From assembly GCA_963702375.1 (NCBI GenBank), contig CAVPCI010000005.1:134858-198857 (forward strand): a DNA stretch of 64,000 nt. Direction: 5' to 3'. A model generated the notes under the pieces. It ran no database searches and was not told where the DNA came from. It saw only the letters and a program-made list of their open reading frames with translations. This document shows positions 13,191-50,051 of the stretch, in pieces. A program made the translations under genes and the position numbers. This DNA comes from an uncultured Acidobacteriota bacterium. GTDB taxonomy: Bacteria > Acidobacteriota > Terriglobia > Acidiferrales > UBA7541. Numbering within the stretch: the stretch's first letter is position 1; each line of letters starts with the position of its first letter.

Positions 13191-13295
13191 ACTTGCGCCG
13201 GTTAAGAGCTTGAGTGAACCGCCCAAGCATTACGCCCCAATAACTGGGTCGATGGTTGTGCTAGCGCAATGGGTGTCGCCGGAGAGCTCTTTCGA

Positions 13296-14643: not shown

Positions 14644-14694
14644 CCGCCGTCGAAGAAATCGCCGACTTGAGATTCCTATTTTCGAGTCGTTCCG

Positions 14695-16565: not shown

Positions 16566-16625
16566 TTGTCTTCTCCCAAAGTTGTTTTTATTGCCCGTAT
16601 CTCAGCGACTTAGGCTTGACACGGC

Positions 16626-17813: not shown

Positions 17814-17864
17814 GGCCGATTCAAATGCAGCTCGGGTGAGCCTCGGTGAGAGAACGGTAAGAAA

Positions 17865-19413: not shown

Positions 19414-19481
19414 TTGCTGCCTCCTCCTTCTCTTTTTTTTGCAACCTAATTGGAGGCTCCGGCCTTTATCCCTCGAAAATG

Positions 19482-20921: not shown

Positions 20922-20978
20922 CGAGAATGTCTCTTCAAGCTAGCGGTCATCCTGCGGATTCGTTCTACTGGCCGTAAC

Positions 20979-20992
20979 GGTAGGTGGTAGGT
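20979..20992. repeat. tandem heptamer GGTAGGT x2 in the leader between the NusG paralog and the transferase
   Basis: Read directly as ggtaggtggtaggt. It lies ~60-70 nt upstream of the transferase start at 20921. Function unknown. Confidence 0.5.
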
Positions 20993-21099
20993 CGCAGATA
21001 ATGCTTCGAGCCATCTCGATTAGAAAGGCAGATCGGTATCACCGATTGTGCCTTCTGCGTTACCGCTGTCGGGACGCTTTTCGGATATCCAATACTCGA

Positions 21100-21681
21100 T
21101 CAGGCCGGCTCGACGGTATAGCCAGCGACTCGAATGGAAAGGGAACGCTGAATGAAATGGACGGAAATTATCAAACTTAGATCGTCGTGCTTCGCTAACA
21201 GAATCCCCTGAACCCCATCTAGGCTTCCTCCACGAATACGAACGCGCTGGCCAATATTCAGATATGGGTGCGGATAAAAGGGAATGCCCTCGGTGACAAT
21301 TGTGCGGACGGCGTCAATTTGAGTATCGGGAATCGGAGTTCCCCTCCCGCCTGCTCCGACAAAGCTTTTGACGCCATCTGTGCCCAGCACCGAGATGCGC
21401 CCATTCGCTGTCTCCATCTCCTTAAGCCGGACGAAGACGTAGCTCGGAAACAATGGCGAGTGGACCACGCGGGTCCGATCGCTCCACTGATGCTTCGAGG
21501 AAAAGAGCGGAAGAAATACGTCAATGTCTTTACGCTGAAGTTCAGCCGAAACCTTCTTTTCATATCTCGGCCAAGTCTGAATTGCGAACCACGACAAGTC
21601 GGATTGAGCCACACCAGCACTTACCAAGCTCGATTCCGTCGGCATTTGAAGATTGGACATAGCTTCGCTAAGTTGAGTCAC
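21100..21681 (-). CDS. NusG-family specialised paralog (RfaH/UpxY-like antiterminator)
   Basis: 193 aa. NGN domain start WFAIQTWPRYEKKVSAEL...VFLPL and KOW motif GQRVRIRGGSLDGVQGILL. Confidence 0.75.
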   Translation of the reverse strand: MTQLSEAMSNLQMPTESSLVSAGVAQSDLSWFAIQTWPRYEKKVSAELQRKDIDVFLPLFSSKHQWSDRTRVVHSPLFPSYVFVRLKEMETANGRISVLGTDGVKSFVGAGGRGTPIPDTQIDAVRTIVTEGIPFYPHPYLNIGQRVRIRGGSLDGVQGILLAKHDDLSLIISVHFIQRSLSIRVAGYTVEPA

Positions 21682-21761
21682 ATGAACAGGTGACCCTACT
21701 GTCGTCGTTTGCTCCGACCTGCCCCCGCTAGCTCCTCAAGGGCACTTCCGCCGGACTATGC

Positions 21762-21780
21762 GTTCTCGGCAAGCGAGAAC
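21762..21780 (-). other. 7-bp stem / 5-nt loop hairpin between the kinase-like gene and the NusG paralog
   Basis: gttctcg gcaag cgagaac, read directly. No U-tract follows on the minus strand, so it is not a classical intrinsic terminator. Confidence 0.25.
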
Positions 21781-21791
21781 TCGTTCGGCGC

Positions 21792-22565
21792 CTAGAGCTT
21801 GCGATACAGCGATTCCGGAATCGGAAACGTACGCTTGTTGAGCACTGCGCCCAGGACCTGGACGTGTGAAGCACGCAAGCTCTCTGAGACTTTAATAGCC
21901 GCGTCCCGCCGAGTGGAACCCGCTTCCAGGACTAACACCAAGCCGTCGCTCAGCTGCCCGAGCGTCAAGGCGTCTGCATATGGAGTGAGCGGTGGAGCAT
22001 CCATGAGCACAAACTCAAACTCTTTGCGCAGTTCTGCGAGTCGGATTTTGAGGTGTCCTGAACTAAGGAGATTGAGAGAGTCACCCGCTAGTGATCCACA
22101 CGAGAGTAACCACAGGCGCTCACCCCAAACCGGCTTTGCGAAAGACCGAATGGGCCCTGCGTTCAGCAGGGAATCAGTAAGTCCGTGATGGTTCGTGGTG
22201 CCAAACGATGTCGAAAGCGCGGGCGATCGCAGATTCGTTTCAACCAAGCAGACCGGTCCGTGAACGCTATTTGCAAGGATCTGTGCGGCCCGAGCACAAA
22301 TTTCCGTGCAGCCGTTGCCGTGGTCTACACCCGCAAACACGACCACGCGGGGAGGCCTTTGCGTTTGCAATAAAAAAATCTGTTGCACCAGTCTCAGGAC
22401 CTCGGCGCCAGTCACCTCATTGAGGTCGAGGGCAGTCACCCCCCGTGGGGCACTCCTTTCATGGGCGTCGTTGTTCCCGATGGGCAGTGTCACCTCGGCA
22501 ACAACGCCCGCACGAAATACGCTGTCTTTGCCAGCCTTCTGCATCAATTCGAAGTTTTTACTCAT
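21792..22565 (-). CDS. BY-kinase-like P-loop protein (CpsD/CapB, PEP-CTERM-locus type) with degenerate Walker A and A'
   Basis: The ATG at 22565 forms an ATGA overlap with the upstream stop. Walker-A position reads GVDHGNGCT (no Lys). A'-like reads LVETNLRSP (canonical DxD absent). Walker B FVLMDAPP is kept. The C-terminus has one Tyr only. Confidence 0.65.
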   Translation of the reverse strand: MSKNFELMQKAGKDSVFRAGVVAEVTLPIGNNDAHERSAPRGVTALDLNEVTGAEVLRLVQQIFLLQTQRPPRVVVFAGVDHGNGCTEICARAAQILANSVHGPVCLVETNLRSPALSTSFGTTNHHGLTDSLLNAGPIRSFAKPVWGERLWLLSCGSLAGDSLNLLSSGHLKIRLAELRKEFEFVLMDAPPLTPYADALTLGQLSDGLVLVLEAGSTRRDAAIKVSESLRASHVQVLGAVLNKRTFPIPESLYRKL

Positions 22566-23851
22566 TGTTCCCCGGGTCCCGCGGCTGAAGCACTGGAACG
22601 TTGGACTTCTCCCGGGCTCGTTGTTAGGGTGGTTGCTTGAGTCTGGCCAAAGCGAATACGGTTGGAATGCTCGAACCAAGAGCGAAGACTTCGCAGTTCC
22701 CCCATCAGTTCAGGACCATGAGGGACGAGTTTCGCAATGCTCGCGCGAGAGAGACGCTGATTGAGTGTTAGGCGCGGTGAATCGCTTGCCTTTCCGCTAG
22801 GGGCGCTCCCGACCGCAGTAGGCGAGGCCACCGCAATGTCCGCCGATAGCTCCGCAGGTTTTAATCTGCTCCGATTGGCGTGGATTATGGCTAAGCTCGA
22901 TGCAACCAGGAGCGCACCCGTGACGGCAATCTTTAAGGCTGAGCGACCGAAATTAGATTGGTTCTTGCCAATCGAGAGAGTCGCTGGCGGCGCACTTGTT
23001 TGGTTTTCAGCCGGCTTCTCCGGGGTAACAGGTTTTTCCCTCAACGGTTCGAGATCCAGGTCCGCAATAACGTTCACGATTATGGAACGGTCGATAGTCT
23101 CGCGGCTTAGGGCGCATCCAAGTGACAGAGCGTTGAAACAGAGATTATTGATGTTGCGAGGGATGCCTTCGCTATGCTGAGCGATCAACTTCCGCGACGC
23201 AGGAGTAAACAGAGACGGATTATTGCAACCCGCGACCCACAACCGACGATCGATGTAAGCATTCACCTCCTCTTCAGTAAACGGATCGATCCGGATAACC
23301 ATAGAAACACGCTGCCGAAGCTGAGCCATTGACGGACTAGCCAGCCGATCGGCGAGTTGGGGCTGTCCGGCAAGGACAATTTGCATCAACTTCATCCAGG
23401 GAGTTTCAAAATTCGAAAGTAATCGGACGGACTCAAGGACTTTTTCTTCCATATTCTGCGCCTCGTCAACTACCAAAACGAAACGCCGCCCCGCGTTCAT
23501 CTCCTCCGTCAGAATCCTGTTCAGCTTATCGTGCATCCCCGGCAGATCCATCGCTGCAACATCAATGCCGAGATCAAGAAGAATGTGGCGGATGAACTCT
23601 CGCGAGTCGCAGTCAGTCCGAAATACATAAGCCGTGCGAGCCTTGTCCCGCAGGTAATCAAGATAATGATAGAGCAAGGAAGTTTTTCCCATCCCCGGCT
23701 TCGCAATAAGAGCTAAGAACCCCCGATCGGTTTCCGTGCCATAAACGAGCGACGCCAGCGCCTCCTGGTGCTTACTTCCCAGGTAGAGAAACCGCGAGTC
23801 GGGAGTGACCCCGAAGGGCTGCTCTGAAAGCTTGTAGTAATCTAAGAACAT
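22562..23851 (-). CDS. ExeA/GspA-like AAA ATPase (PEP-CTERM-locus secretion ATPase type) with a C-terminal TM segment and extension
   Basis: 429 aa with MFLDYYKLSEQPFGVTPDSRFLY, Walker A KPGMGKTSL and Walker B VLVVDEAQN, then a TM helix (ALKIAVTGALLVASSLAII). Confidence 0.8.
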   Translation of the reverse strand: MFLDYYKLSEQPFGVTPDSRFLYLGSKHQEALASLVYGTETDRGFLALIAKPGMGKTSLLYHYLDYLRDKARTAYVFRTDCDSREFIRHILLDLGIDVAAMDLPGMHDKLNRILTEEMNAGRRFVLVVDEAQNMEEKVLESVRLLSNFETPWMKLMQIVLAGQPQLADRLASPSMAQLRQRVSMVIRIDPFTEEEVNAYIDRRLWVAGCNNPSLFTPASRKLIAQHSEGIPRNINNLCFNALSLGCALSRETIDRSIIVNVIADLDLEPLREKPVTPEKPAENQTSAPPATLSIGKNQSNFGRSALKIAVTGALLVASSLAIIHANRSRLKPAELSADIAVASPTAVGSAPSGKASDSPRLTLNQRLSRASIAKLVPHGPELMGELRSLRSWFEHSNRIRFGQTQATTLTTSPGEVQRSSASAAGPGEQ

Positions 23852-23907
23852 TTGTGATCGAGTTCTCCGCCAAAACGCAAAATCGCGACGATAGACACAG
23901 TTCGGGA

Positions 23908-24645
23908 CTACGGGGTTATGTACGATCCAGCGTTGCCTCCGATCGAATATGGAACATACTTACGAAAATTCGTTATGAACTTTTCGGGCACAAATATCAT
24001 ATCTCCCGGCAACAGCTGCGCGTCCTCGTTTGCCTTCTTTCCGTGCAAGATGTCCTTGAGGCTAAGTTTCTTGACCTCAACCCAGTCAGACGACACGCGG
24101 TGAAACAGAAAGACCTGCGTTTTGGCCGTGGGCGCAAATCCACCGGCGATTGCAATTGCTTCCGAGACCGTGGTGTCATGTCGCAAATCATATTGCCCAG
24201 GCTTACCTACTTGGCCCGAGACTATGAAAAACGGCTTCTGAAAATCAACCAAAGTGACATTGATTATCGGGTCGTGAAGTATGCCTGAGTAGGCTTTCTT
24301 CATGGCCTGGACAATTTCTGGGACAGTCATTCCCTGAACGTGCAAGCTGCCAGCACCCTCAAGATCGATGTAACCGTCTGGCTGCACAACAACGGAGCAA
24401 CTGGTCGTCGTCGTGCAGCCGGACGGTTGGTTGAATTCCGGAGAGAGAGGAAACGAGATTAAAAGGCCGTCGTCAGGCTGAACTTTGTATCGGGGATTTC
24501 GCGGCTCTAGCGCAGGGTCGACAGAACCAGACTTGCTCGAAACTTGGGCAGGAGTTGAAGTGTTTGGCGCCTGACAAAGAGCGGCCGGCACGACAACTAG
24601 AGCAATGATTACAACGAATGGTCCTAACGATTTTGCTCGATACAT
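23908..24645 (-). CDS. small Wza-family polysaccharide export protein (Poly_export + one SLBB)
   Basis: 245 aa: signal peptide, YKVQPDDGLLISF, VVVQPDGYIDLEGAGSLHVQGMT and IFVPEK. Confidence 0.8.
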   Translation of the reverse strand: MYRAKSLGPFVVIIALVVVPAALCQAPNTSTPAQVSSKSGSVDPALEPRNPRYKVQPDDGLLISFPLSPEFNQPSGCTTTTSCSVVVQPDGYIDLEGAGSLHVQGMTVPEIVQAMKKAYSGILHDPIINVTLVDFQKPFFIVSGQVGKPGQYDLRHDTTVSEAIAIAGGFAPTAKTQVFLFHRVSSDWVEVKKLSLKDILHGKKANEDAQLLPGDMIFVPEKFITNFRKYVPYSIGGNAGSYITP

Positions 24646-32176: not shown

Positions 32177-33544
32177 TCAGCGACTCAGGGCAGGAATATT
32201 CAACCTGCCGGTCTCATCCGATGTGCTGTCTTCGGGCCCCAAAAGATATTTACTGAAGCCTTTCAAGAAAATGATCTGGGCAATGATCGGCAGGTACAAC
32301 CATAAGTTCACAAAGAAAGAAAAGAGCGCACAGAAAAACAGGACCGCATATTTTGTAATTGCATAGAACGATCTCCCTTCGTTGGCTTCCCGATAGGACC
32401 ACCCGCTCCACCAAACAACTACCCCAGTGAACAGCACACAGCCCAAGAATCCTACGTCAGCATAAATCGGCGCGACAAAGGATAGGACATTGAAAGCTTC
32501 CACCTCCGGCAGGTCATCGTAATATGAGATCTTAGGCCGGAACGTGGAGGGCACCAAGCCCAGGACCGAGGAGCCGTTATAAACAGGCACCTGAGGATTC
32601 GATACGAGGTTATCAAGGTTCAGGACATTGAAGTAGCCATACGCGTATACCCACACCGCGGCATCGGGCAGATTCTTATACTCGTCCGTGACGCCCGCGA
32701 TCGTTTTGATATCACCGCTCCTCAGATTGCCTACCACTCCGAAGAGGACCAGAACAACCGCGGTCGCAATCGCGAGATTCCGCAGCCGCACGCGGCCCCG
32801 GACAAAACAATAAACTACAAAACTCTCGACGAGCATCGAAACAATGTTCTGTCGAGTGACAAAGATCACGAAGACTGTGAGGATCAAGCTCCAAATCCAT
32901 AAGTATCCATTTCTCCGGGTTTTGAGATAAAGATAAATGGAAAGAACGCCCAGCGCGTTTGCGAAAGCGTTGTAGAAACCATAGATTCCATGAATTCCAA
33001 AATCCGAATACCCAGTGTCCCCGGTCTGTATTCCCCGGATAATCGGCACATAGCCAGCCGTCGCCACGTTAAAGATCGTGAGTGCAACGTAGGAGATCAC
33101 TAACGCTCGATATCCTCTGGACTTGACGACCCAGGTTTGTTGGCTGCGCCTCCAATGCTTCTCGGAGACCGCGCTGAGGTAGTAAGCGATAACGGCGGAA
33201 ATCTCCACCGCCAAGAGAAGTGAATACGTCTTCTCGCTTACGGGCCGCGCGTACTTGCTAATTTCCAGCGTGCCAAAAAGCGTGATCCCAATCCAAGGCA
33301 GCAGGAGGGCCAGCATAGGATTTAAATAATCGAACTTCAGAACGATGACTGCAATTGGCAGCAAGAGAATGGACCAGGCCCAGAGGAGTGCACTGGATTG
33401 GACTAAACTATGAAGAAGCAGAGCTGTAACCAACAACGTAGGGACGAAAGCCCACATGGCTACAGCGGTAAAGTCTTGTAGCCGAATCGCCTGGCGCTCA
33501 TCCCTCATTCTGAGGTTCCTACAGGTCCGCGGGCAGCGGACCAA
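32177..33544 (-). CDS. Wzy-type oligosaccharide repeat-unit polymerase (polytopic membrane protein)
   Basis: 455 aa with ~10-12 hydrophobic helices and no enzymatic soluble domain. Position in a Wzx-containing locus supports the call, which is made by context and topology only. Confidence 0.55.
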   Translation of the reverse strand: MVRCPRTCRNLRMRDERQAIRLQDFTAVAMWAFVPTLLVTALLLHSLVQSSALLWAWSILLLPIAVIVLKFDYLNPMLALLLPWIGITLFGTLEISKYARPVSEKTYSLLLAVEISAVIAYYLSAVSEKHWRRSQQTWVVKSRGYRALVISYVALTIFNVATAGYVPIIRGIQTGDTGYSDFGIHGIYGFYNAFANALGVLSIYLYLKTRRNGYLWIWSLILTVFVIFVTRQNIVSMLVESFVVYCFVRGRVRLRNLAIATAVVLVLFGVVGNLRSGDIKTIAGVTDEYKNLPDAAVWVYAYGYFNVLNLDNLVSNPQVPVYNGSSVLGLVPSTFRPKISYYDDLPEVEAFNVLSFVAPIYADVGFLGCVLFTGVVVWWSGWSYREANEGRSFYAITKYAVLFFCALFSFFVNLWLYLPIIAQIIFLKGFSKYLLGPEDSTSDETGRLNIPALSR

Positions 33545-41343: not shown

Positions 41344-42486
41344 CTACTCTTGCCCTCGAGCTGACATCTCGCGAACCAATCGACCACCCAATTGATCGCT
41401 GAGCAGCTTTACATCCGCCTCGACCATAATTCTTACCAATTCCTCGAATCTTACCTTAGGCCTCCATCCGAGGACGTGCGCAGCCTTACTGGCGTCGCCT
41501 TGGAGAAGGTCGACTTCGGTGGGGCGAAAATACCTCGGATCAATCACGACATGCTTTTCCCAATCAAGGCCGGCGTGCGTAAACGCGCGCTCGAGGAATT
41601 CGCGCACCGTGTGGGTTTCACCGGTGGCGATCACAAAATCATCCGGCGCATCGAGCTGCATCATTCGCCACATCGCTTCCACATATTCCGGCGTATAACC
41701 CCAGTCGCGCTTGGCCTCGAGGTTTCCCATATAGAGGGTATCTTGCAAGCCCGCACGAATCCGCGCAACTGCGCGGGTGATCTTGCGGCTCACAAAAGTT
41801 TCTCCACGGCGCGGGGATTCGTGATTAAAAAGAATCCCGTTGCAAGCAAAAAGGCCATAGCTCTCCCTGTAGTTCACAGTCATCCAGTGGGCGTAGACCT
41901 TGGAGCAGGCATAGGGACTACTGGGCCGGAATGGCGTCGTCTCGCGCTGCGGGACTTCCGGCGTTCTTCCGAACATTTCGCTGCTCGACGCCTGGTAAAA
42001 CTTAGCCTTAATTCCCGTTTCTCGAACGGCTTCCAATAAGCGGACCGTCCCAAGCGCGGTAACATCGCCCGTATATTCGGGTATCTCGAAGCTCACTTTC
42101 ACGTGGCTCTGAGCACCCAAGTGATATATTTCATCGGGCTGAAGCCGATAGAGCAATTTGATCAGGCTGGTAGAATCGGAAAGGTCGGCAAAATGCAGCA
42201 ACAAACGAGCGGCACCCTCGTGCCAGTCCGGAAGGATGCTGTCAATTCGAGACGTATTAAAGCTGCTCGAGCGGCGTTTGATGCCGTGTACTTCGTAGCC
42301 CTTGGAAAGGAGCAACTCGGCAAGGTAGGATCCATCCTGGCCCGTGACGCCAGTGATAAGCGCCTTTTTTGTCAGGTGAATAATCTCCTTTCTTTTCTCC
42401 GCGTTGCACGGACGATTAGGCGTCCGCCGCACCGCTTGGTTTGTTTTCCTTGCGACTCGCAGTGTTACTCCCGTCGCCGGATCCAT
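41344..42486 (-). CDS. gmd: GDP-mannose 4,6-dehydratase, long (E. coli-type) form; start uncertain
   Basis: [53 protein letters not shown] and [17 protein letters not shown] lies 9 nt before a CTG at 42375. The ATG at 42486 would overlap the upstream gene by 70 nt. Confidence 0.85.
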
Positions 42487-43807
42487 TTGACGAGAGCCCT
42501 GGGAGGCTCGCCTTTACAGTGGCGAGCACCTCTTGCGCGAATGCTTTCCCGGGGTCATCCGAGGCTATACTTTTCCACTCGGCCCTGCCAAACACGAACG
42601 CCACTCCGACGGCAAATGCCAGCGCAGCTCCCAGCGTCATGATCAGCAGCCTCGGAGGAAACGACCTCTTCTCCGGAATTTCCGCTGGATCGAGTACCTT
42701 GACACTCGGAGTCTCCTTCGCTTCCTCCACTTTGGCGAGTTCGTATTGCTGCGTCAGACTCTCGAACACCGCTTCCTCAACTTTTGTTCCCCGGTACAAA
42801 TCCGCATACGTCACACCGAGAACCGGAAGTTGCCGAATCGCCGGATAGGTAGACTCCAAGTCGCCACCATTCGGGGCAGACTCGCCACCCGGCTTGCCGC
42901 CAATCTTTCCCAGTTGCCGTCGAAGCTCATCCACTCGCGCTTGAGACTGGCGAACCCTGACGTTACTATCTGTGTAGACTTGTTTCAAAGACTCGACCTC
43001 GCTTTGAGCGGCCATCAATTTCCCCTCAAGGTCAGCAGCAGCTCCTATCATGGCCCTAGTTTGATCGGGAATGTTGACGGCGGTGTTTTTGCTAGCAAAG
43101 TCGCTGAAAGCCTTCTCAGCCGATTCAAGGTCCTTTTTGACCTCCGCCAGCCGGCCCTCTAAAAAAACTCTTTCACGGTGAGCTGAGGAAGTATTCAGGT
43201 TGGTAACAACATTGTCCAATTCCGCCGTGTATTCCTGGGCCAGTGCCGCAGCACGCCGCGGACTTCGGTCGGTTACTTGAATGGTGATGATGCCACTCTT
43301 GCGGTTGCTCGTTACATCGGTGCGCTTCGCTAGAATCTTGCGCGCGGCTTCCCAAGACCGAGTACCGTATACCCTTCGAAGGTCGAACTTTCGAATTAGA
43401 TCGTCCTGAACTGTTCGGCTTCCCAAGACGCCAACGAAAAGATCTCCGGAGGTCTTCAATCCAAACAGATCCTCGGTCAAGCCCGCCATTCCCTCTCCGC
43501 CTTTGCTGCTAAGGAGAGCTGCAAGCGCTCCCATATTTCCCGACTGGTCGGGCGGCATCAACTGTGTCGTCGATTGATAGCGCGCCGGAATTAGAAGGGC
43601 TATCAGCAGGGAGGCAATGAATCCGACCGCGGTCACTTTGAACAGCAACCGTCTATGTTCCCAAAGCAGGCGCAATGCCGCTAGTGACTGTCCACGGCGC
43701 CTCCGGTAACCGATCTCCTCAGGGAGAATAATTTCATCGCGGCGAATGAGGCCGACCTCCTGGCTCGGCAAATCCCCAATCATCGGGCGATGAGGGTCTC
43801 GCGGCAT
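42416..43807 (-). CDS. polysaccharide co-polymerase (Wzz/GumC-type) without a kinase domain
   Basis: 463 aa: TM1 ([18 protein letters not shown]) followed by [13 protein letters not shown], a long coiled-coil region, [20 protein letters not shown] and TM2. A short Ser/Gly tail follows and there is no P-loop. Confidence 0.75.
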
Positions 43808-43839: not shown

Positions 43840-46413
43840 CTAGTTGTTTGGCTTATCCGCCATTCCATGGCCGGACCACGGCCAAAACGTCAACCCAATC
43901 GAGGTGGTCAAATCTGTTTGTCTCGTTTGTGAAATAACCGGAAAGCTCCACCTCTCGTATTGCACTGAAGCCGTCACGCTCAAAGTAGAGTGCAGCCAAA
44001 ATGATGCGCTTGCTCCCGCGTCTGTGATGGTGCCACCGTGAGGAATCAATTGCTCGCTCACCTTCTCGTGCCGGAAATTGAACTGAAGGTTGTCCTTAGG
44101 AGTGAACCAATATGTGGTCCATGCACTCGCGCCTTGGCCTTCGCGTCCGATCCAACTCCCTATCAGATTGCCGTCGTTTGTGTAGCCGCTGAGGAAACGG
44201 TCGTTTATGTAAAAGAAGCCGTGCTGCAAGGAAGGCTGAATGGCAGGTGGATCGGTGTAAATTCCCTCCGCGCGAAAATCCAGTTTCGGAATTTTCGGAA
44301 GTCGGGGCATGTAGATTCCGCTTATAACGGCAGCCTTGTTCCAATTGCGCCACGGGCTGATCTCGTCGTCCGTGAAAGCATCCCCATAAAGGGTCAGCCA
44401 ATTCCGCAGCTTTGGAAAACGATAGGTGAAATCGAAACCACCCCGCCGATCACCTGGATCACTCGGGGTTCCCGGCAAAGCGTTGCTTGCGATTGGGAGA
44501 ATGGACTGGCCGAACTTGTGGAGCGTCATGGGGACGCCTGCACCCGCAAGAATTGTGGTGACGCCCATCCCCATTTCAAAATTCGGCGTCGGCTTGATGC
44601 TTATTTTCCCGCCGTCGATGAAGGGTTGGTCGTCCAATGGCTGTGTCCACGAACCCGTGATCCCTGTCAGAGCGCTGCTGACCCAGTTTTGCCCCGTCAG
44701 CCGGCCGAGGAAAAATTGGACTCGCACCGGACCCAAATAACGAAAGACACTCGGCAGAGTGAACGGAGTCACTCGATTGATTTGGACCATCTCAATCGGG
44801 GCCGCATTACTACTGAACAACATCGGTCCGCTTTTGTCGGGGCCCCACCATTGCTCCTGCTTGCCAAAGGTGATGGCCCAGTCCTCGAACTGCATACCCA
44901 CATACCCGTCGAGCAAGTCCGCCTGGCCGATCGCCGGTGTCGGATTGCCCGGAGGAATTGCGGGCAGCACGTCCTGAACACCTGCGATTACCTCTCGTGC
45001 CAAAAGCGGCAGTGCGGGAGCGGAAGGCGCGTACTGATATTCGGCGCGCACGTAGCCCACCAGCGGGCCGGCGGTTGCCCATCCAGATGCCCCGGCAATC
45101 GCGTTCGTTCCCTCTTCGTAGGGCCGACCGTAGTCGTTCACAATCGTCTGGCCGTAGTCATATTTGGCGCCCCCGCTGAGCGGCTGGCCGCTGATTCCGG
45201 TCACACGCACGTAAATGGATTCTATCCGCGCATTGCGATTCGTACCTCCGCCCAGCAAATTCAACTCGCGGGCAAATTCATCGTTCAAGTCTTCCAGAAT
45301 CCGGCTCGCTTCCGCCGGACTCGCGGAGTCTCCGGTGACCTCATCGCTAGCGTCACTGATCAGTCGCGCGCATTCCATGCGCGTCCATGGCCTCTGGCCC
45401 AAAAAACCTTCGGGCACATCACCAAGCGCCTCCAGGCGGTCGAGCGCCGGATAAATCCAACTGTCGAGCGGAACATATGGCGATCCCATATCTTTTCGAT
45501 GATAGGGATGGTCGCCGAGTAGCATTTCTGACGTGCTGTTCCATTCGCCTCCACCTAACTCCGGATCGTGATGCTGGCTATAGACGAATTCCCCGGTTAG
45601 CCACCCAATTGCGCTGCCGACCAGCACGTCCGATGTGAAGTGCTGTTTGCCCTCGACACGCGCTGCGGTGATCGCGGCTGCCGCTCCGTAGGCGAGAAGC
45701 TTCGGCAAGGGCCCTGGATACTCGTGGCTCAAAACGCTGGCAACTGACCAGGCAGCAGCGGCATGTTCGGACGGAAAGGAATCGCCGCCGCTCCAAAATT
45801 CTCCGTTATGGTTGCCTTGAAACGGCCGGTTCCGGCCCGCGGCGTATTTCACTGCCTCGGTGATCGCCAGACTGTCCACTGCCGCCTCTCCGGCCAGCAA
45901 GCCCGCCTCCCGTGCGTGATCGTTATCCGTAAAGTGGCCCCACAGGTAGAGCGCTCCGGTGCCGCCGGCAAGAGCGGCGATTCCATAATTCGACAAACTC
46001 ACGTATCGGTTCTGGGTATGCAGGCTATTCGATATGTGCAGGCTCGTGTCGCGATCTGTTGCAATCATCCCGGCAGTTATTCCACCCAAGGGCACAAGCC
46101 AAATGCTGTCCTGCACCCGCAGTCGAGCTGGCGCCGTCCAGAGCCCTTTCTGATCTTGTGCAATGTGCTTCAGAAGCGAAACTCCCAACGAATTCTCGTA
46201 ATCCTCCGAACTATCGGTGGAGTCCGAAGGTGCGGTCCCAGGCTGCAGGTGCCCATTCGACCGCTCACGGGCACTAGCCGCGGCCGCCTGGCTCGGTCCA
46301 CTTGAAGCCTTTGCTGTCGTTTGGCAATAACTCGTTCTGGTTGTAACAGTAAAGCTAATTACAGAGCAAGCCAACACAAGTTTCGCCCAATGTTCTACCC
46401 TTGCGCCGACCAT
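43840..46413 (-). CDS. fusion protein: N-terminal PAP2 phosphatase domain + C-terminal Wzi-like capsule-assembly beta-barrel
   Basis: The ATG at 46413 shares one base with the upstream TGA (TGATG). Signal-like WAKLVLACSVISFTV. PAP2 blocks KYAAGRNRP / PSEH / ARVEGKQHFTSD fall at ~45580-46180. Wzi-like YVPLDSWIYPALDRLEALG and a ~550-aa beta-rich C-terminus fall at ~43840-45490. Confidence 0.7.
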   Translation of the reverse strand: MVGARVEHWAKLVLACSVISFTVTTRTSYCQTTAKASSGPSQAAAASARERSNGHLQPGTAPSDSTDSSEDYENSLGVSLLKHIAQDQKGLWTAPARLRVQDSIWLVPLGGITAGMIATDRDTSLHISNSLHTQNRYVSLSNYGIAALAGGTGALYLWGHFTDNDHAREAGLLAGEAAVDSLAITEAVKYAAGRNRPFQGNHNGEFWSGGDSFPSEHAAAAWSVASVLSHEYPGPLPKLLAYGAAAAITAARVEGKQHFTSDVLVGSAIGWLTGEFVYSQHHDPELGGGEWNSTSEMLLGDHPYHRKDMGSPYVPLDSWIYPALDRLEALGDVPEGFLGQRPWTRMECARLISDASDEVTGDSASPAEASRILEDLNDEFARELNLLGGGTNRNARIESIYVRVTGISGQPLSGGAKYDYGQTIVNDYGRPYEEGTNAIAGASGWATAGPLVGYVRAEYQYAPSAPALPLLAREVIAGVQDVLPAIPPGNPTPAIGQADLLDGYVGMQFEDWAITFGKQEQWWGPDKSGPMLFSSNAAPIEMVQINRVTPFTLPSVFRYLGPVRVQFFLGRLTGQNWVSSALTGITGSWTQPLDDQPFIDGGKISIKPTPNFEMGMGVTTILAGAGVPMTLHKFGQSILPIASNALPGTPSDPGDRRGGFDFTYRFPKLRNWLTLYGDAFTDDEISPWRNWNKAAVISGIYMPRLPKIPKLDFRAEGIYTDPPAIQPSLQHGFFYINDRFLSGYTNDGNLIGSWIGREGQGASAWTTYWFTPKDNLQFNFRHEKVSEQLIPHGGTITDAGASASFWLHSTLSVTASVQYERWSFPVISQTRQTDLTTSIGLTFWPWSGHGMADKPNN

Positions 46414-49400
46414 CAGTAGTGCGTGGCGATGAACACCGTGCTCACGATAGAGGAAGCAACCGATGCCGCCGTAAACAAGTTGGCCCACTGCACGCCGGGG
46501 CCGATCGCCTTCTCCGGTACCACCACTGTGTCCCCGGCTTGCAGCACCGATCCAAGAGAGCTTCCAATCCACAACCCTTCCCTTCGCCCAATTATCGAGC
46601 CATCCGCGCGAATCACGAAGATCGACTTCCGATTCGCCGTAGTTGTTACTCCACCAGCCTGTTCCAGATACCACTTCACGCTCTTGCCAGGCCGGTATGC
46701 AACCGCCGTGGGATTGAAGACCTGTCCAGTGACCATCACGTAGTCGGGACGCTTGGGGATGATGAGCGTGTCCCCGGCTCTCGCTTCGAAATCGGCCGCT
46801 TTGTTTTTCCAGCGATCTATGTGGGATGAAATGCGAATCGCGATACGCCCCACGGGCGCGTTCGTCGTTAGCTGCATCAACGTGGTCTCATATTGGCCGA
46901 GAGCCATTTCCTTCGCTTGTTTCTGGGCCGGCGTGCTGTCCGGCATTGCCTCCAAGCTTCCCTCGGCGTCCTTCACGCGTAGCACGAGTTTGTTCTGCTC
47001 CTTCGTCTCCAGATCCCGCACCTGCACGCGCTCAAGGATGGCGCCATAGGGATAAGCGTCTGGCAAAAATCCGCCCGCCCGCTCCAAAATCGAACTCAAC
47101 CGCTCACCGGGCCGAATCCCATAAGTCCCGGGATGCTTCACTTCGCCCTTCAGCGTAATCGTGGCGCCCAAATCCTCCCAACCGGGAAGCTGACGAATAC
47201 TAACCACATCGCCGTTGTGAAGTTGCGCGTTACTTTTCGGATCGCCCGAGAGGGCGGCGGAAATGGCAATCGGCTCATGCTGTCCGGTCAACTGGCTCTG
47301 TCCGGCATATTCATACCGCGTCAGATCTCCATCCTCGGTGTCGGCGTCCGGCTTCAGGCCGCCTCCGACGCGGACCAGATCGGCCACCGTCATATTTGTG
47401 GTCAGAGGATAGCGGCCCGGGCTCCCGACTTCTCCTTCGATGTACACCACGGCAGGCTGCACGGCGTTCGTGCTCTTATGTATGAGCAGGCGGTCACGCG
47501 GCTCCAAAATAATATTCTGAGTCGAATCGCCGGCAAGGGCTTGATTCAATGACACGCTGAAAATCTCCGCTTTGCCATCGGGCATGTACCGGAACACTTG
47601 CGCGTCGTCGGTCTGCGCATCCGGCTCCATCCCTCCTGCCAAATGAACGGCGTCGGCCAAATGAATTTGTCCGGAAGTCCGATAGGTGCCCGGCGCTCTC
47701 ACATCACCCAGAACCGATACAGTCGGCGGATTTTCGAAATCGAAGCGGCTGAAAACTCGGACCGTATCCATTGCGTGAAGAACCGGCGCTTGCGCTGGAT
47801 TTGCAAGGGCATCTGCGAGGTTGAAACTCTGCACGCTGGGACGGAAATCGGGCGCGTTAAGACGAATGATTTCGGCATACTGCATCGAAGGTTCCGGCAG
47901 CAAATCCTTGAACGATGGAATCAAATCGGTCACCCGCATGTCGTCATGATAGGAATACCGGCCGGGACGAATCACATGCCCCTCTAGATACACCGCATCT
48001 TCATTACCCTGGCTTATTGGAAATACTCGAATGCGATCGCTGTCCTGTATCTGAAAGGAGTCCAGCTTTTTCGTTGATTCGGCATCGTCGTCCGAAGCGG
48101 GAATATTGAGGCTGAGCATGGTGTGCTTGTCGTGGGCAATGGTTCGCTGCACCTCAATATGCTGCAATGTAGCCGTTGGAAGCAGGCCTCCGGCTAGTTC
48201 CAGCACACCGGATAAGTCCTTCTCGTCTTTCAGTTCATAAATCGCGGGACGTCGCACCATCCCTTCAACAGTCACCTGTGGACCAATTGGGGGAACCAGA
48301 ACACTGTCGCCATTTTGCAAACGCTGGATGTCAGACTTCACCCCATGCAGGAGCAAATCGTATAAATCCACGTTTTGAACCAATTGGCCGCCGCGAAGAT
48401 GCTGCACAATCCGGAGCGATCCTCCCTGTGTGGGGCCACCCGCAATAAACAATGCATTCAGCGGAGTGGAGAGCGAACTCACGTCGTAGGCTCCCGGATT
48501 TGCGACATCGCCCACTACATAAATTCGAACCGTTCTCAAGCGCGAAAGCGAAACATCGGCCGAAATATTGCGAAATTGAGTGCGCAGAACCTGCTGCAGA
48601 TTCTGCTGAACCTCGGCAAGACTCTTCCCGCTTACCAGCAGCGGACCTACCTCGGGCAAGCTGATTCGGCCTTCGCGGTCGACACTTCTATATATCCGGC
48701 GCGACACGCCTCCCCACAGATCGATTGCCAAGCCATCCCCAGGTCCCACCACGTAATCCGGACCAGCCGGCAAGTCCATGGGAATCGCATAGGGGTTTTG
48801 CGAGTTGTTTTCGAAAACGTCCATGCCAAACCGCCTAGCAGCCGCAGGCTGCGGTGTCGCCTGTATGTACATGTCATAAAGCGAAGGAATGTCATTGTAC
48901 GGGTTTGGTTTGCGTACCATCGCCGCCGGTTGCAGGAGGGATTGGTTCGGATTCCTCAAAGGGCCGGGAAAGTAATAATTGGGGTAGTAATTGCGGTATC
49001 CCTGCGCATTCATCGCCGCCCCGCCCATTTGACCTGACTGCGTCATGTCAAACTGGTTCATGTCGAAAGGATTTATGTCCGTGCGATCGAATGAACCTCC
49101 GAGATCACCACCCCCCGCATACTGATCGAGCAAGTTGCCCGTCAATCCGGAACCGCCCGGAGAAACACCGGGCGATTCTCCGTCATTCTGGGACTGCAGC
49201 TGCTGCATAAGGGACGACGTCCCGCCTCCTCCGCCGAGCCCCTGTGACTCTAGCGAACCGGGCAGATTCCCGGATAGTGGCGGCGAGAGTTGATCATCCG
49301 ATTGGCCAGTTTGCATGAGCTGGGCTTGCTGCAGTGTATTGTTTCTGCCCGCTGGTGGTTGTATGAATGGACTCGGCTGACTCGGGCCGAACCACGGGGG

Positions 49401-50051
49401 CCCGCTTGGAAGCTGCTGTTCGGGCCCTAGCTCCTGCGGCAGTTGCCCCTGTTGCCCTTGTTGCGCAGCCCCTTCGCAGCTCCTGGAATCGCCTTGCAAG
49501 CACTTACGCGCCTTTTCATACCGGTCCCGCGTCTGCTGCAACACCTGCGCTCTCTGCTGCTCTTCTTCCTGAGCGATGAATTTTACGCGCTCTTGAATCA
49601 GCAGGTCTTGCTCTTTTCCAGCCTCTGACTCCGGATTCACCGTGGGCATCAAATAGCCGTAGCGCTGAAGCAGCTGAGTGACCACGGAACGAAATCGCAC
49701 ATCGTTCTGGAGGCGTTCGAAAATCGCGTCATCGGCCAGATCGCGCTCGGTGATGATTTGGCCCTGGTCGGTCGCATCCTTGGCCACCCAGCGCTTTACT
49801 TCGACCATAAGACCCGGATTCTTAGCCAAAACTACCTTGATATCCTCTGCTGATGCTCCTACCTGGGCCAGATTATGGCGGGCGAGTTCTGGGCCGGCGA
49901 CTGGGTTTTGCCGGGAGACCTGAGCACCGGCGACCGTTGAAAATAACAATAATGCCCACACGGAGTAGGAGAACCGGATTGCCTGCCCGCGACCTCTTTG
50001 AATCGCGCTGAGCCGCAGGTTAGTGGTCGCCATCACGGGGATGGTCTCCAT
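46413..50051 (-). CDS. giant Wza/KpsD-family outer-membrane polysaccharide export protein (Poly_export + multiple SLBB repeats) with a ~400-aa N-terminal extension
   Basis: 1212 aa. Signal peptide, a structured ~150 aa, then a Q/N/G/P-rich low-complexity stretch (~48927-49475). PAGPDYVVGPGDGLAIDLWG (Poly_export) follows, then repeated SLBB-like units (GDV..PG.Y, GD.V.VP). The C-terminus is a hydrophobic helix (FTAASVASSIVSTVFIA). Confidence 0.8.
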   Translation of the reverse strand: METIPVMATTNLRLSAIQRGRGQAIRFSYSVWALLLFSTVAGAQVSRQNPVAGPELARHNLAQVGASAEDIKVVLAKNPGLMVEVKRWVAKDATDQGQIITERDLADDAIFERLQNDVRFRSVVTQLLQRYGYLMPTVNPESEAGKEQDLLIQERVKFIAQEEEQQRAQVLQQTRDRYEKARKCLQGDSRSCEGAAQQGQQGQLPQELGPEQQLPSGPPWFGPSQPSPFIQPPAGRNNTLQQAQLMQTGQSDDQLSPPLSGNLPGSLESQGLGGGGGTSSLMQQLQSQNDGESPGVSPGGSGLTGNLLDQYAGGGDLGGSFDRTDINPFDMNQFDMTQSGQMGGAAMNAQGYRNYYPNYYFPGPLRNPNQSLLQPAAMVRKPNPYNDIPSLYDMYIQATPQPAAARRFGMDVFENNSQNPYAIPMDLPAGPDYVVGPGDGLAIDLWGGVSRRIYRSVDREGRISLPEVGPLLVSGKSLAEVQQNLQQVLRTQFRNISADVSLSRLRTVRIYVVGDVANPGAYDVSSLSTPLNALFIAGGPTQGGSLRIVQHLRGGQLVQNVDLYDLLLHGVKSDIQRLQNGDSVLVPPIGPQVTVEGMVRRPAIYELKDEKDLSGVLELAGGLLPTATLQHIEVQRTIAHDKHTMLSLNIPASDDDAESTKKLDSFQIQDSDRIRVFPISQGNEDAVYLEGHVIRPGRYSYHDDMRVTDLIPSFKDLLPEPSMQYAEIIRLNAPDFRPSVQSFNLADALANPAQAPVLHAMDTVRVFSRFDFENPPTVSVLGDVRAPGTYRTSGQIHLADAVHLAGGMEPDAQTDDAQVFRYMPDGKAEIFSVSLNQALAGDSTQNIILEPRDRLLIHKSTNAVQPAVVYIEGEVGSPGRYPLTTNMTVADLVRVGGGLKPDADTEDGDLTRYEYAGQSQLTGQHEPIAISAALSGDPKSNAQLHNGDVVSIRQLPGWEDLGATITLKGEVKHPGTYGIRPGERLSSILERAGGFLPDAYPYGAILERVQVRDLETKEQNKLVLRVKDAEGSLEAMPDSTPAQKQAKEMALGQYETTLMQLTTNAPVGRIAIRISSHIDRWKNKAADFEARAGDTLIIPKRPDYVMVTGQVFNPTAVAYRPGKSVKWYLEQAGGVTTTANRKSIFVIRADGSIIGRREGLWIGSSLGSVLQAGDTVVVPEKAIGPGVQWANLFTAASVASSIVSTVFIATHY

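What the first reader, a model, noticed from the sequence alone, without database searches (positions are those of the whole stretch)
43840..46413. PAP2 phosphatase domain fused to a Wzi-like capsule-anchoring beta-barrel
All three PAP2 catalytic blocks are present in order (K-x6-RP as KYAAGRNRP, PSEH, R-x5-H-x3-D as RVEGKQHFTSD). They are followed by the Wzi hallmark YVPLDSWIYPALDRLEALG and about 550 beta-rich residues.

Known Wzi proteins are lectin-like outer-membrane barrels with no enzymatic domain that I know of. PAP2 enzymes that act on undecaprenyl-PP or lipid A usually sit in the inner membrane or are soluble periplasmic acid phosphatases. A signal-peptide-bearing fusion therefore predicts phosphatase chemistry at the outer membrane. 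That could mean trimming a phosphate or lipid-phosphate anchor from the exported polymer, or remodelling the lipid it is tethered to.
Basis: partly seen in the sequence, partly recalled or inferred. Interest (0 to 1): 0.65.

Follow-up and report, generated by a model that had tools for sequence, protein, structure and literature searches.

The report
Phosphatase fused to capsule-anchoring outer-membrane barrel
One gene in a soil-bacterium (Acidobacteriota) sugar-coat export operon really does join an apparently active lipid-phosphatase domain to a Wzi-type outer-membrane barrel; the fusion is common in this phylum, no study of it was found, and it suggests unexplored phosphate chemistry at the outer membrane during capsule assembly.

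Summary
Window 46413..43840 (minus strand) is one uninterrupted 857-aa ORF. It has a PAP2 domain (Pfam E=4e-18) and a Wzi domain (E=1e-103).

The order of parts is: signal peptide, disordered linker, six-helix PAP2 core, SLH-like helical segment, then a Wzi-type beta-barrel (Foldseek to E. coli Wzi 2YNK, E=1e-16).

The fusion is not an assembly error. Both searches returned top-120 lists in which nearly every protein carries both Pfam domains. In 265 full-length relatives (40-97% identity in the PAP2 part) the catalytic Arg, His and Asp residues are at least 98.9% conserved.

All named hits are Acidobacteriota. The gene order OPX > PAP2-Wzi > PCP holds in 15 of 15 related loci that extend past the gene; the other two are cut there.

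The PAP2 fold is of the membrane type (LpxE/PgpB), but its helices are too polar to be held in the inner membrane. The same argument was published in 2025 for Porphyromonas gingivalis LpxE, a PAP2 fused to a predicted barrel.

My best reading is an outer-membrane-tethered lipid-phosphate phosphatase working with the polysaccharide export machine. The substrate is unknown. The automatic names seen here list one or both domains, but I found no paper that describes the fusion. I rate it a new variant of known kinds, of moderate to high interest.

The parts
43840..46413 (-). Whole PAP2-Wzi fusion gene (857 aa plus stop)
   Evidence: Continuous ORF. The ATG at 46413 overlaps the OPX stop as TGATG. 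Both Pfam domains lie in one protein. Homologues start at the same position.
46324..46413 (-). Predicted Sec signal peptide (residues ~1-30; positive n-region, h-region LVLACSVISFTV, likely cleavage before Q31)
   Evidence: Read from the sequence. Homologues show typical A-x-A / A-Q cleavage contexts. The Hessa-scale sum is +4.8, typical of a cleavable signal and not a membrane anchor. No signal-peptide predictor was available.
46204..46323 (-). Disordered Ser/Thr/Ala/Pro-rich linker (residues ~31-70)
   Evidence: AF2 pLDDT is below 50 for residues 1-70. The region is not conserved in the alignment.
45559..46191 (-). PAP2 phosphatase domain (residues ~75-285): an amphipathic helix 78-97 plus six core helices
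   Evidence: Pfam PAP2 E=4e-18. AF2 helices are 106-125, 131-161, 165-192, 216-231, 235-254 and 260-281. The best Foldseek matches are the membrane PAP2s B. subtilis PgpB 5jki and A. aeolicus LpxE 6ebu (TM 0.73).
45823..45849 (-). PAP2 motif C1, K-x6-RP (KYAAGRNRP, residues 189-197)
   Evidence: In 265 fusions: R196 263/265, P197 264/265, R194 265/265, K189 only 215/265.
45763..45774 (-). PAP2 motif C2, PS(G)H (PSEH, residues 214-217); the family signature is PS[E/D]H
   Evidence: S215 264/265 and H217 262/265. Position 216 is E or D in 215/265, where canonical PAP2 has Gly.
45628..45660 (-). PAP2 motif C3, R-x5-H-x3-D (RVEGKQHFTSD, residues 252-262)
   Evidence: R252 262/265, H258 265/265, D262 265/265.
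45244..45486 (-). [quoted passage not shown]
   Evidence: The family profile matches SLH domain 8bz2 at E=1.6e-7. AF2 helices are 320-329, 345-361, 367-388. This is the best-predicted part of the model (10-residue block pLDDT means 81-93), and many positions are invariant. It lies outside the Pfam Wzi match.
43879..45234 (-). Wzi-family beta-barrel (residues ~394-845)
   Evidence: Pfam Caps_assemb_Wzi E=1e-103 over residues 420-833. The profile matches Wzi 2ynk at E=2.7e-12. Foldseek matches 2ynk at E=1.1e-16, with TM 0.77 normalised to the target.
46413..50051 (-). Upstream partner: giant OPX (Wza-like) exporter of 1212 aa, translationally coupled to the fusion gene
   Evidence: Poly_export plus many SLBB/SLBB_2 repeats. 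The C-terminal hydrophobic helix LFTAASVASSIVSTVFIAT has a Hessa sum of +2.0. It is adjacent in all 17 related loci.
42416..43807 (-). Downstream partner: PCP/Wzz-type co-polymerase (Wzz + GNVR, no kinase domain)
   Evidence: It is adjacent in all 15 related loci that extend that far.

Best explanation
The gene encodes one secreted envelope protein with two working parts.

The C-terminal 18-strand-type Wzi barrel, with its SLH-like periplasmic helical segment, would be inserted in the outer membrane. There it plays the Wzi role, a polysaccharide-binding anchor next to the OPX export pore.

The N-terminal PAP2 domain is a catalytically competent histidine phosphatase of the lipid-phosphate (LpxE/PgpB) type. 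Its helices have been made too polar to be caught in the inner membrane, so the barrel carries the domain to the outer membrane.

There it would remove or transfer a phosphate on a lipid at the outer membrane. The most likely substrate is lipid A 1- or 4'-phosphate. An alternative is the phosphate or diphosphate-lipid end of the exported polymer. Either reaction would condition the surface on which the exopolysaccharide is retained.

If the six-helix bundle sits in the outer membrane with both ends in the periplasm, as the connection to the periplasmic helical segment requires, PAP2 topology puts the active site at the outer-leaflet headgroup level.

Shown here: the architecture, conservation of the active site, the membrane-type fold, the low hydrophobicity and the operon linkage. 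Inferred: the localisation, the orientation, the substrate and the link to capsule retention.
For: - One continuous ORF with both domains.
- Catalytic R196, P197, S215, H217, R252, H258 and D262 are at least 98.9% conserved in 265 fusions spanning 40-97% identity in the PAP2 part. The PAP2 part is as conserved as the barrel (median 57% against 50% identity).
- The PAP2 model (pLDDT 82, pTM 0.81) best matches the integral-membrane PAP2s PgpB 5jki and LpxE 6ebu (TM 0.73, rmsd 3.8). Soluble class A acid phosphatases score about 0.4-0.47. The best PAP2 sequence match in the PDB is LpxE.
- The PAP2 helices have a Kyte-Doolittle maximum of 1.2 and Hessa-scale sums of +5.6 to +12.3. Comparison values are +4.8 for the signal peptide, -1.9 for the PCP transmembrane helix and +1.0 to +2.6 for the Klebsiella inner-membrane PAP2.
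- Published precedent: P. gingivalis LpxE, which that paper treats as the lipid A 1-phosphatase, has a Sec signal, a PAP2 domain with low-hydrophobicity helices and a predicted C-terminal barrel, and is predicted to be in the outer membrane (PMC12704123). The rule that outer-membrane helices have positive insertion energy is in PMC11845990.
- The barrel is a Wzi homologue.
- The gene lies between OPX and PCP with a TGATG overlap. OPX sits directly upstream in 17/17 related loci; PCP follows in all 15 that extend past the gene.
- Independent recurrence of the pairing: Klebsiella and E. coli group 1 capsule loci carry galF-PAP2(cpsACP/orf2)-wzi-wza-wzb-wzc. orf2 is listed among the capsule hits in density-TraDISort (PMC4616057; PMC6247091; PMC6128206; L018).
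Against: - There is no experimental localisation, activity or phenotype for any member.
- The tools gave no model coordinates or PAE, so the position of PAP2 relative to the barrel and the membrane is untested.
- The helices are much more polar than even the P. gingivalis-type LpxE values reported (about +4). The domain could therefore be a soluble periplasmic module rather than embedded in the membrane. Variable helix positions are only about half hydrophobic.
- How a helical bundle would insert in the outer membrane is unknown.
- The C1 lysine is replaced in about 19% of members.
- The Klebsiella orf2 PAP2 is not a close relative (E=0.18) and is a hydrophobic inner-membrane type. That parallel is one of association, not orthology.
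- Stand-alone relatives of this PAP2 clade are not in polysaccharide loci.
Confidence: 0.5

Rival explanations
1. The PAP2 domain is a soluble (or only peripherally bound) periplasmic phosphatase tethered under the barrel. It acts on a periplasmic substrate at the export site, for example phosphate substituents or the reducing-end phosphate of the passing polymer, or a released polyprenyl diphosphate. It is not embedded in the outer membrane.
For: The helix hydrophobicity is very low (Hessa sums +5.6 to +12.3; Kyte-Doolittle maximum 1.2) and the helices are rich in Ala, Gly, Ser and Thr. Variable helix positions are only about 52% hydrophobic. Flexible linkers flank the domain (pLDDT below 50 at residues 1-70 and 293-298). 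Soluble PAP2 enzymes exist and are detected as weaker matches.
Against: The best fold and sequence matches are integral-membrane PAP2s, not the soluble class A enzymes. Polyprenyl diphosphate sits in the inner membrane, out of reach of a domain tethered to the outer membrane. Aromatic residues cluster at the helix ends (W105, Y156, W158, Y232, Y278 on one side; Y137, Y143, Y190 on the other), as in membrane proteins; this is read from the sequence and is an inference.
Confidence: 0.25
2. The barrel is not a lectin-like anchor. It is the outer-membrane conduit (porin) for the polymer, as the Wzp barrels are in Class-3 OPX systems, and the PAP2 domain is an accessory.
For: OPX proteins that lack an outer-membrane helix need a partner barrel, and plug-less Wzi-like barrels were proposed as such porins (bioRxiv 10.1101/2022.02.11.480155; PMC12819527). 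The barrel gene is translationally coupled to the OPX gene. AlgE-type exporters are among the Foldseek hits.
Against: This OPX ends in a hydrophobic or amphipathic helix after its last SLBB repeat, as Class 1/2 OPX proteins do. The barrel keeps the N-terminal helical segment that occludes Wzi. By far the best structural match is Wzi itself (E=1e-16 against about 1e-9 for AlgE).
Confidence: 0.12
3. The PAP2 domain is catalytically dead and serves only as a structural or ligand-binding module. Alternatively, the fusion is an assembly or gene-calling artefact.
For: The C1 lysine varies (215/265), and Gly in the PSGH motif is replaced by Glu or Asp. Some metagenomic gene calls split at the domain boundary: tails such as 'GLALCAAG' appear to be the MGSPYVPLD codons read out of frame, and L006 has a frameshift.
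Against: Seven catalytic or motif residues are at least 98.9% conserved across 265 sequences down to 40% identity. The ORF is continuous in this window and in all 17 genome loci except one with a single-base shift. Both searches returned top-120 lists in which nearly every protein carries both Pfam domains.
Confidence: 0.04

Closest known systems
E. coli / Klebsiella Wzi (PDB 2YNK; Pfam PF14052), the outer-membrane lectin of group 1 capsules
   Same: The barrel is homologous (Pfam E=1e-103; profile E=2.7e-12; Foldseek E=1e-16, TM 0.77). A helical segment precedes the barrel. The gene is encoded with Wza-like OPX and Wzc/Wzz-like PCP genes.
   Different: It carries an extra N-terminal region of about 280 aa that includes a PAP2 enzyme domain. 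The 2013 structure paper describes Wzi as a barrel with an N-terminal helical bundle and mentions no enzymatic domain (PMC3791409). The gene sits between OPX and PCP, not upstream of wza. The host is Acidobacteriota. Polysaccharide binding was not tested.
Porphyromonas gingivalis-type LpxE (lipid A 1-phosphatase with a C-terminal beta-barrel extension; PMC12704123)
   Same: Both have a Sec signal, a PAP2 domain of the LpxE fold with helices of reduced hydrophobicity, and a C-terminal beta-barrel, which implies an outer-membrane location.
   Different: There the barrel has about 200 aa and eight predicted strands, belongs to no known family and is linked to T9SS and OMV biology. Here it is a Wzi-family barrel of about 450 aa with an SLH-like segment, inside an EPS export operon. 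The sequence relationship between the two PAP2 domains was not tested.
Klebsiella / E. coli group 1 capsule locus gene cpsACP (orf2), a PAP2 protein encoded next to wzi
   Same: [quoted passage not shown] This is the same PAP2 + Wzi + OPX + PCP association, but as separate genes.
   Different: orf2 is a 209-aa hydrophobic inner-membrane-type protein. It has no clear C1 motif and has D-to-E in C3. It is only marginally similar to this domain (BLASTP E=0.18). Its function is also unknown.
Inner-membrane PAP2 lipid phosphatases (LpxE 6EBU, PgpB 5JKI/5JWY, BcrC/YbjG-type Und-PP phosphatases)
   Same: The same six-helix fold and the same C1/C2/C3 catalytic motifs. There are weak NCBIfam hits to Und-PP phosphatase models.
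   Different: Those enzymes are stand-alone, strongly hydrophobic and retained in the inner membrane. Here the NCBIfam scores are far below the cut-offs (14.6 against 229), so this is not a member of those equivalogs.

Membership tests
PAP2 superfamily (PF01569) | Pfam model score above the gathering threshold | tested here: met
   65.8 bits against 27.2, E=4e-18, residues 181-282.
PAP2 superfamily (PF01569) | Three catalytic motifs in order: KX6RP, PSGH, SRX5HX3D | tested here: met
   KYAAGRNRP, PSEH and (A)RVEGKQHFTSD are present. R, P, S, H, R, H and D are at least 98.9% conserved in 265 relatives. Deviations: K is 81% conserved, Gly is replaced by Glu or Asp, and the Ser before the C3 Arg is Ser or Ala.
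PAP2 superfamily (PF01569) | All-helical PAP2 fold | tested here: met
   The AF2 domain model has pTM 0.81. Foldseek matches LpxE 6ebu (TM 0.73, rmsd 3.8) and PgpB 5jki (E=2.7e-4).
PAP2 superfamily (PF01569) | Phosphatase or phosphotransferase activity | not testable with these tools
   This needs an enzyme assay.
Wzi capsule assembly family (PF14052) | Pfam model score above the gathering threshold | tested here: met
   347.5 bits against 30.1, E=1e-103, covering profile positions 17-389 of 392.
Wzi capsule assembly family (PF14052) | 18-stranded outer-membrane beta-barrel like 2YNK | tested here: inconclusive
   Foldseek matches 2ynk at E=1.1e-16, with TM 0.77 normalised to the target. DSSP lists about 20 strand segments, some split. 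The exact strand count could not be checked without coordinates.
Wzi capsule assembly family (PF14052) | N-terminal periplasmic helical bundle preceding the barrel | tested here: met
   Helices 320-329, 345-361 and 367-388 directly precede the first strand. By sequence the segment is SLH-like. Whether it occludes the barrel was not tested.
Wzi capsule assembly family (PF14052) | Encoded with a Wza-type OPX and a Wzc/Wzz-type PCP in a Wzx/Wzy-dependent locus | tested here: met
   OPX, PCP, a Wzx-like flippase, glycosyltransferases and Bac_transf all lie on the same strand. OPX is adjacent in 17/17 related loci and PCP in the 15 that extend far enough. No Wzy was identified by Pfam; the ORF at 32177-33544 has no hit.
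Wzi capsule assembly family (PF14052) | Lectin activity or a capsule-retention phenotype | not testable with these tools
   This needs binding assays and genetics.
P. gingivalis-type LpxE (PAP2 + C-terminal barrel) | Sec signal plus PAP2 helices of reduced hydrophobicity | tested here: met
   An N-terminal signal-like segment is present. Helix Hessa sums are +5.6 to +12.3, against +1.0 to +2.6 for an inner-membrane PAP2. The published criteria are in PMC12704123.
P. gingivalis-type LpxE (PAP2 + C-terminal barrel) | C-terminal extension of about 200 aa predicted as an 8-strand barrel | tested here: not met
   Here the extension is about 550 aa: an SLH-like segment plus a Wzi-family barrel. The design is analogous, but this is not the same family.
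P. gingivalis-type LpxE (PAP2 + C-terminal barrel) | Lipid A 1-phosphatase activity | not testable with these tools
   This needs lipid A mass spectrometry of mutants.
Und-PP phosphatase equivalogs (NCBIfam NF008813, NF047884) | Score above the curated cut-off | tested here: not met
   14.6 against 229 bits and 14.4 against 250 bits.
SLH domain | Significant match to SLH sequence models | tested here: inconclusive
   The family profile matches PDB 8bz2 at E=1.6e-7 and the single sequence at E=2e-4. The Pfam scan listed no SLH family, even with the E-value limit set to 10.

The most novel reading that the evidence does not exclude
The PAP2 domain is a true alpha-helical integral outer-membrane enzyme that rides on a BAM-inserted Wzi barrel, with its active site at the outer leaflet. 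It performs a so far unassigned step in the surface anchoring of Wzy-dependent polysaccharides. Candidate reactions are local dephosphorylation of lipid A, or processing or transfer of the phosphate-lipid terminus of the polymer. This would also explain why enterobacterial group 1 capsule loci keep a PAP2 gene (cpsACP/orf2) next to wzi.
Probability: 0.2. Interest if true: 0.85.

Novelty: new variant of a known kind. Interest (0 to 1): 0.6.

Why it matters
How Wzy-dependent capsules and exopolysaccharides are held on the cell surface is still unclear. So is whether any chemistry happens at the outer membrane. Wzi is the only dedicated factor described, and it is regarded as a non-enzymatic lectin.

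A large, conserved family in which Wzi is covalently joined to an apparently active lipid-phosphate phosphatase argues that phosphate or lipid remodelling belongs to the Wzi function, at least in Acidobacteriota, a major group of soil EPS producers. It also gives a testable hypothesis for the unexplained PAP2 gene next to wzi in Klebsiella.

It would add a second, independent example beside P. gingivalis LpxE of a helical PAP2 enzyme delivered to the outer membrane by a fused beta-barrel. That bears on how non-barrel proteins reach this membrane.

Tried and rejected
1. Hidden frameshift or separate genes: rejected. The ORF is continuous and the fusion is seen in both top-120 lists. The split calls in metagenomes look like out-of-frame readings.
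2. Soluble class A acid phosphatase type: not favoured. Foldseek and sequence matches prefer LpxE and PgpB.
3. Und-PP phosphatase equivalog: rejected. NCBIfam scores are far below the cut-offs.
4. Orthology with Klebsiella orf2/cpsACP: rejected. BLASTP gives E=0.18, and orf2 is a hydrophobic inner-membrane type that lacks C1. Only the gene association is shared.
5. The idea that the C-terminal tail of the stand-alone PAP2 relatives (...YGLALAWNF) is a remnant of the last barrel strands: rejected. An HMM of the fusion C-terminus gives no match.
6. Genomic context of the stand-alone relatives as a clue to function: uninformative. The neighbourhoods vary and are not polysaccharide loci.
7. Using variable helix positions to decide between lipid and water exposure: inconclusive.
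8. Literature search for a described PAP2-Wzi fusion: none found in the searchable library. The Lipocone paper mentions only a TonB-C fused to a Wzi-like barrel.
9. Acinetobacter wzi has no PAP2 neighbour, so the association is not universal.
10. Domain geometry from AF2 could not be read, because coordinates and PAE are not exposed.
Full report
**1. The observation**

The minus-strand ORF is open from 46674 to 43840. The ATG at 46413 overlaps the TGA stop of the upstream gene (…CAC TAC TGATG…) and aligns with the N-termini of homologues.

All four quoted sequence strings are present at the stated places. Pfam finds PAP2 (PF01569, residues 181-282, 65.8 bits against a cut-off of 27.2, E=4e-18). 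It also finds Caps_assemb_Wzi (PF14052, residues 420-833, 347.5 bits against 30.1, E=1e-103). Neither match can be due to chance, and the region 45500-45580 contains no stop or frameshift.

**2. Anatomy**

An AlphaFold2 model built on 98 homologues (mean pLDDT 73, pTM 0.69) gives the following layout:
- residues 1-70: an N-terminal signal-like helix followed by a disordered segment;
- residues 78-97: an amphipathic helix;
- residues 106-281: six long helices, the PAP2 core. Motif C1 lies at the end of helix 3, C2 at the start of helix 4, and C3 spans the helix 5/6 turn;
- residues 282-312: a linker of about 30 residues;
- residues 320-388: three or four helices;
- residues 394-843: a large beta-barrel.

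Foldseek places the whole model next to E. coli Wzi (2YNK) at E=1.1e-16, with TM 0.77 normalised to Wzi. Other 16- to 18-strand barrels such as AlgE, MOMP and OmpM score at about 1e-9 or weaker. The family profile also matches Wzi by sequence (E=2.7e-12).

By sequence it resembles an SLH domain (8bz2: profile E=1.6e-7). It probably corresponds to the periplasmic helical bundle of Wzi, but I could not check that residue by residue.

**3. The PAP2 domain looks active and is of the membrane type**

In 113 close relatives, and then in 265 full-length relatives (40-97% identity in the PAP2 part), I counted conservation of the motif residues:

| Residue | Conserved |
|---|---|
| R194 | 265/265 |
| R196 | 263/265 |
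| P197 | 264/265 |
| S215 | 264/265 |
| H217 | 262/265 |
| R252 | 262/265 |
| H258 | 265/265 |
| D262 | 265/265 |
| K189 (C1 lysine) | 215/265 |

The canonical Gly of the PSGH motif is Glu or Asp in 215/265, so the clade signature is PS[E/D]H. The PAP2 part is as conserved as the barrel (median identity to the query 57% against 50%). This argues for an enzyme under selection, not a decayed module.

A separate model of residues 70-300 (pLDDT 82, pTM 0.81) best matches integral-membrane PAP2 enzymes. These are B. subtilis PgpB 5jki (E=2.7e-4) and Aquifex LpxE 6ebu (TM 0.73, rmsd 3.8 Å). Soluble class A acid phosphatases reach only TM 0.40-0.47. LpxE is also the best PAP2 sequence match in the PDB. 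NCBIfam equivalogs for Und-PP phosphatases are far below their cut-offs, so no specific substrate family can be assigned.

**4. Topology argument**

None of the six PAP2 helices is hydrophobic enough to act as a stop-transfer sequence. The Kyte-Doolittle 19-residue maximum is 1.2. A position-independent Hessa-scale sum gives the following values:

| Segment | Hessa-scale sum |
|---|---|
| PAP2 helices | +5.6 to +12.3 |
| The protein's own signal peptide | +4.8 |
| C-terminal helix of the neighbouring OPX | +2.0 |
| Transmembrane helix of the neighbouring PCP | -1.9 |
| Helices of the Klebsiella inner-membrane PAP2 orf2 | +1.0 to +2.6 |

The whole polypeptide should therefore cross the inner membrane, and its C-terminal barrel should take it to the outer membrane.

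This is the same reasoning published for P. gingivalis LpxE. That protein is treated there as the lipid A 1-phosphatase, has a Sec signal, has PAP2 helices of raised insertion energy, and carries a predicted C-terminal barrel (PMC12704123). Known helical outer-membrane segments show the same property (PMC11845990).

In the six-helix PAP2 topology both termini lie on the side opposite the active site. This follows from established structures of PgpB and LpxE and from the order of helices and motifs. If the bundle is in the outer membrane and its C-terminus joins the periplasmic helical segment, the active site would face the outer leaflet, where the lipid A phosphates are. This step is inference. 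The tools do not expose coordinates or PAE, and the helices are polar enough that a soluble periplasmic domain remains a serious rival.

**5. Genomic context**

The gene lies in a same-strand Wzx/Wzy-type exopolysaccharide operon. The order is:
1. a 1212-aa OPX (Poly_export plus many SLBB repeats, ending in a hydrophobic helix);
2. the PAP2-Wzi fusion;
3. a PCP (Wzz + GNVR);
4. GDP-mannose 4,6-dehydratase;
5. a Wzx-like flippase;
6. methyltransferases and glycosyltransferases;
7. a Bac_transf initiating transferase.

The scan of reference genomes returned 17 loci, all from Acidobacteriota MAGs and sharing 55-87% identity with the query. OPX lies directly upstream in all 17. PCP follows in the 15 loci that extend far enough.

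**6. Distribution**

- A search with the full protein found at least 5993 proteins at E≤1e-5. Of the top 120 (53-92% identity), 119 carry both PF14052 and PF01569.
- A second search from a divergent member (41% identity in the PAP2 part) again gave 120 of 120 with both domains. It found 803 proteins at E≤1e-30.
- All named hits are Acidobacteriota: Acidobacteriaceae, Bryobacteraceae, Terriglobales and 'Candidatus Acidiferrales/Acidoferrales'.
- Source names include 'capsule assembly Wzi family protein' (NCBI) and 'membrane-associated phospholipid phosphatase' or 'Capsule assembly protein Wzi/PAP2 superfamily' (JGI).
- The PAP2 clade has 354 clusters at 50% identity with E≤1e-30. Of the best 150 representatives, 71 visibly carry the Wzi part. 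Most of the rest are fragments or out-of-frame calls.
- A genuine stand-alone sub-clade also exists. It has a signal, the same N-terminal helix, the PAP2 core and a tail of about 35 aa ending in an aromatic residue. It comes from Acidobacteriota such as Pyrinomonadaceae and lies in unrelated neighbourhoods.

**7. Comparison with what is known**

I found no paper that describes a PAP2-Wzi fusion. The 2013 structure paper describes Wzi as a barrel with a helical bundle that binds polysaccharide, and mentions no enzymatic domain (PMC3791409).

Two known systems are close in different ways:
- **P. gingivalis-type LpxE** has the same design principle, a PAP2 domain fused to a barrel, but with an unrelated small barrel and a different cellular context.
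- **Enterobacterial group 1 capsule loci** conserve a PAP2 gene directly upstream of wzi. The order galF-cpsACP-wzi-wza-wzb-wzc is the general arrangement across the 79 Klebsiella K types studied (PMC4616057). orf2 scored as a capsule gene in density-TraDISort (PMC6247091), and the same arrangement occurs in E. coli group 1 loci (PMC6128206). I confirmed it on a K. pneumoniae chromosome (L018).

The Klebsiella protein is a hydrophobic, divergent inner-membrane PAP2 that is barely alignable to this domain (E=0.18). The parallel is therefore a recurrent functional association (PAP2 with Wzi, OPX and PCP), not orthology. It is not universal: Acinetobacter wzi has no PAP2 neighbour.

**8. Verdict**

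The feature is real, conserved and very probably functional.

The most likely mechanism is an outer-membrane-tethered PAP2 lipid-phosphate phosphatase acting together with a Wzi-type anchor in a polysaccharide export machine. Lipid A phosphate is the leading candidate substrate, by analogy with LpxE and from the topology argument.

The substrate, the localisation and the link to polymer retention are all untested. A soluble periplasmic role is the main rival.

I rate it a new variant of known kinds (the Wzi family and barrel-tethered PAP2 enzymes). It is widespread in sequence databases but, as far as I could find, unstudied. Interest is 0.6.

Noticed in passing
window 45244-45486 (-), residues ~310-390: The conserved segment between the PAP2 domain and the barrel matches an SLH domain (PDB 8bz2) at profile E=1.6e-7. 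SLH-plus-barrel is the architecture of OmpM-type outer-membrane tethers. The N-terminal helices of Wzi may therefore be SLH relatives with a cell-wall-binding role.
   Followed up: partly
window 46413-50051 (-): The OPX is unusually large (1212 aa). It has an N-terminal region of about 420 aa that contains a long low-complexity stretch rich in Gln, Gly and Pro. This is followed by Poly_export, many SLBB/SLBB_2 repeats and a terminal hydrophobic helix (…WANLFTAASVASSIVSTVFIATHY). Its stop overlaps the start of the fusion gene (TGATG).
   Followed up: partly
window 13261-24645 (-): A second polysaccharide locus lies in the same window. It has a short 245-aa OPX (Poly_export plus one SLBB, like Class 3, at 23908-24645), an AAA_22 ATPase, a second Bac_transf (19482-20921), a WecG-type and a GT4 glycosyltransferase, and a second flippase (13261-14643). 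No Wzi or PAP2 gene is associated with it.
   Followed up: partly
proteins P0317, P0339, P0341, P0345, P0348, P0354, P0356, P0358, P0359, P0361-P0364 (loci L021-L023): A stand-alone clade of the same PAP2 subfamily (40-47% identity). Each member has a signal peptide, the same N-terminal helix and a tail of about 35 aa ending in a beta-strand-like motif with a terminal aromatic residue (…YGLALAWNF), which recalls an OMP beta-signal. The tail is not homologous to the barrel C-terminus, and the neighbourhoods are not polysaccharide loci.
   Followed up: partly
window 45763-45774 (-), residue 216: The canonical Gly of the PSGH motif is Glu or Asp in 215 of 265 family members (PS[E/D]H). An acidic residue beside the catalytic His may reflect an unusual substrate, for example one that carries an amine, or a metal.
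   Followed up: no
proteins P0226, P0236, P0263, P0319, P0320, P0357; locus L006 8558-8560: Several metagenomic gene calls end in '…G(L/V)A(L/I)C(A/S)AG'. By my hand reading of likely codons (not checked on the DNA), this is the MGSPYVPLD segment read out of frame. These calls appear to have frameshifts, probably sequencing errors, in the inter-domain linker. L006 has a single-base shift inside the PAP2 part.
   Followed up: partly
window 42416-43807 (-): The PCP has Wzz and GNVR domains but no cytoplasmic tyrosine-kinase domain. No separate kinase or Wzb phosphatase was found among the ORFs scanned.
   Followed up: no
L018 2212-2841 (K. pneumoniae cpsACP/orf2): The Klebsiella PAP2 next to wzi lacks a recognisable KX6RP motif and has Glu in place of the C3 Asp (…SRLVIHAHSVSEV). 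About 2 kb separates it from wzi. Its catalytic competence is doubtful.
   Followed up: partly
window 44038-45522 (+): A 494-aa ORF lies antisense to the fusion gene. It is most likely a shadow ORF in GC-rich coding sequence.
   Followed up: no
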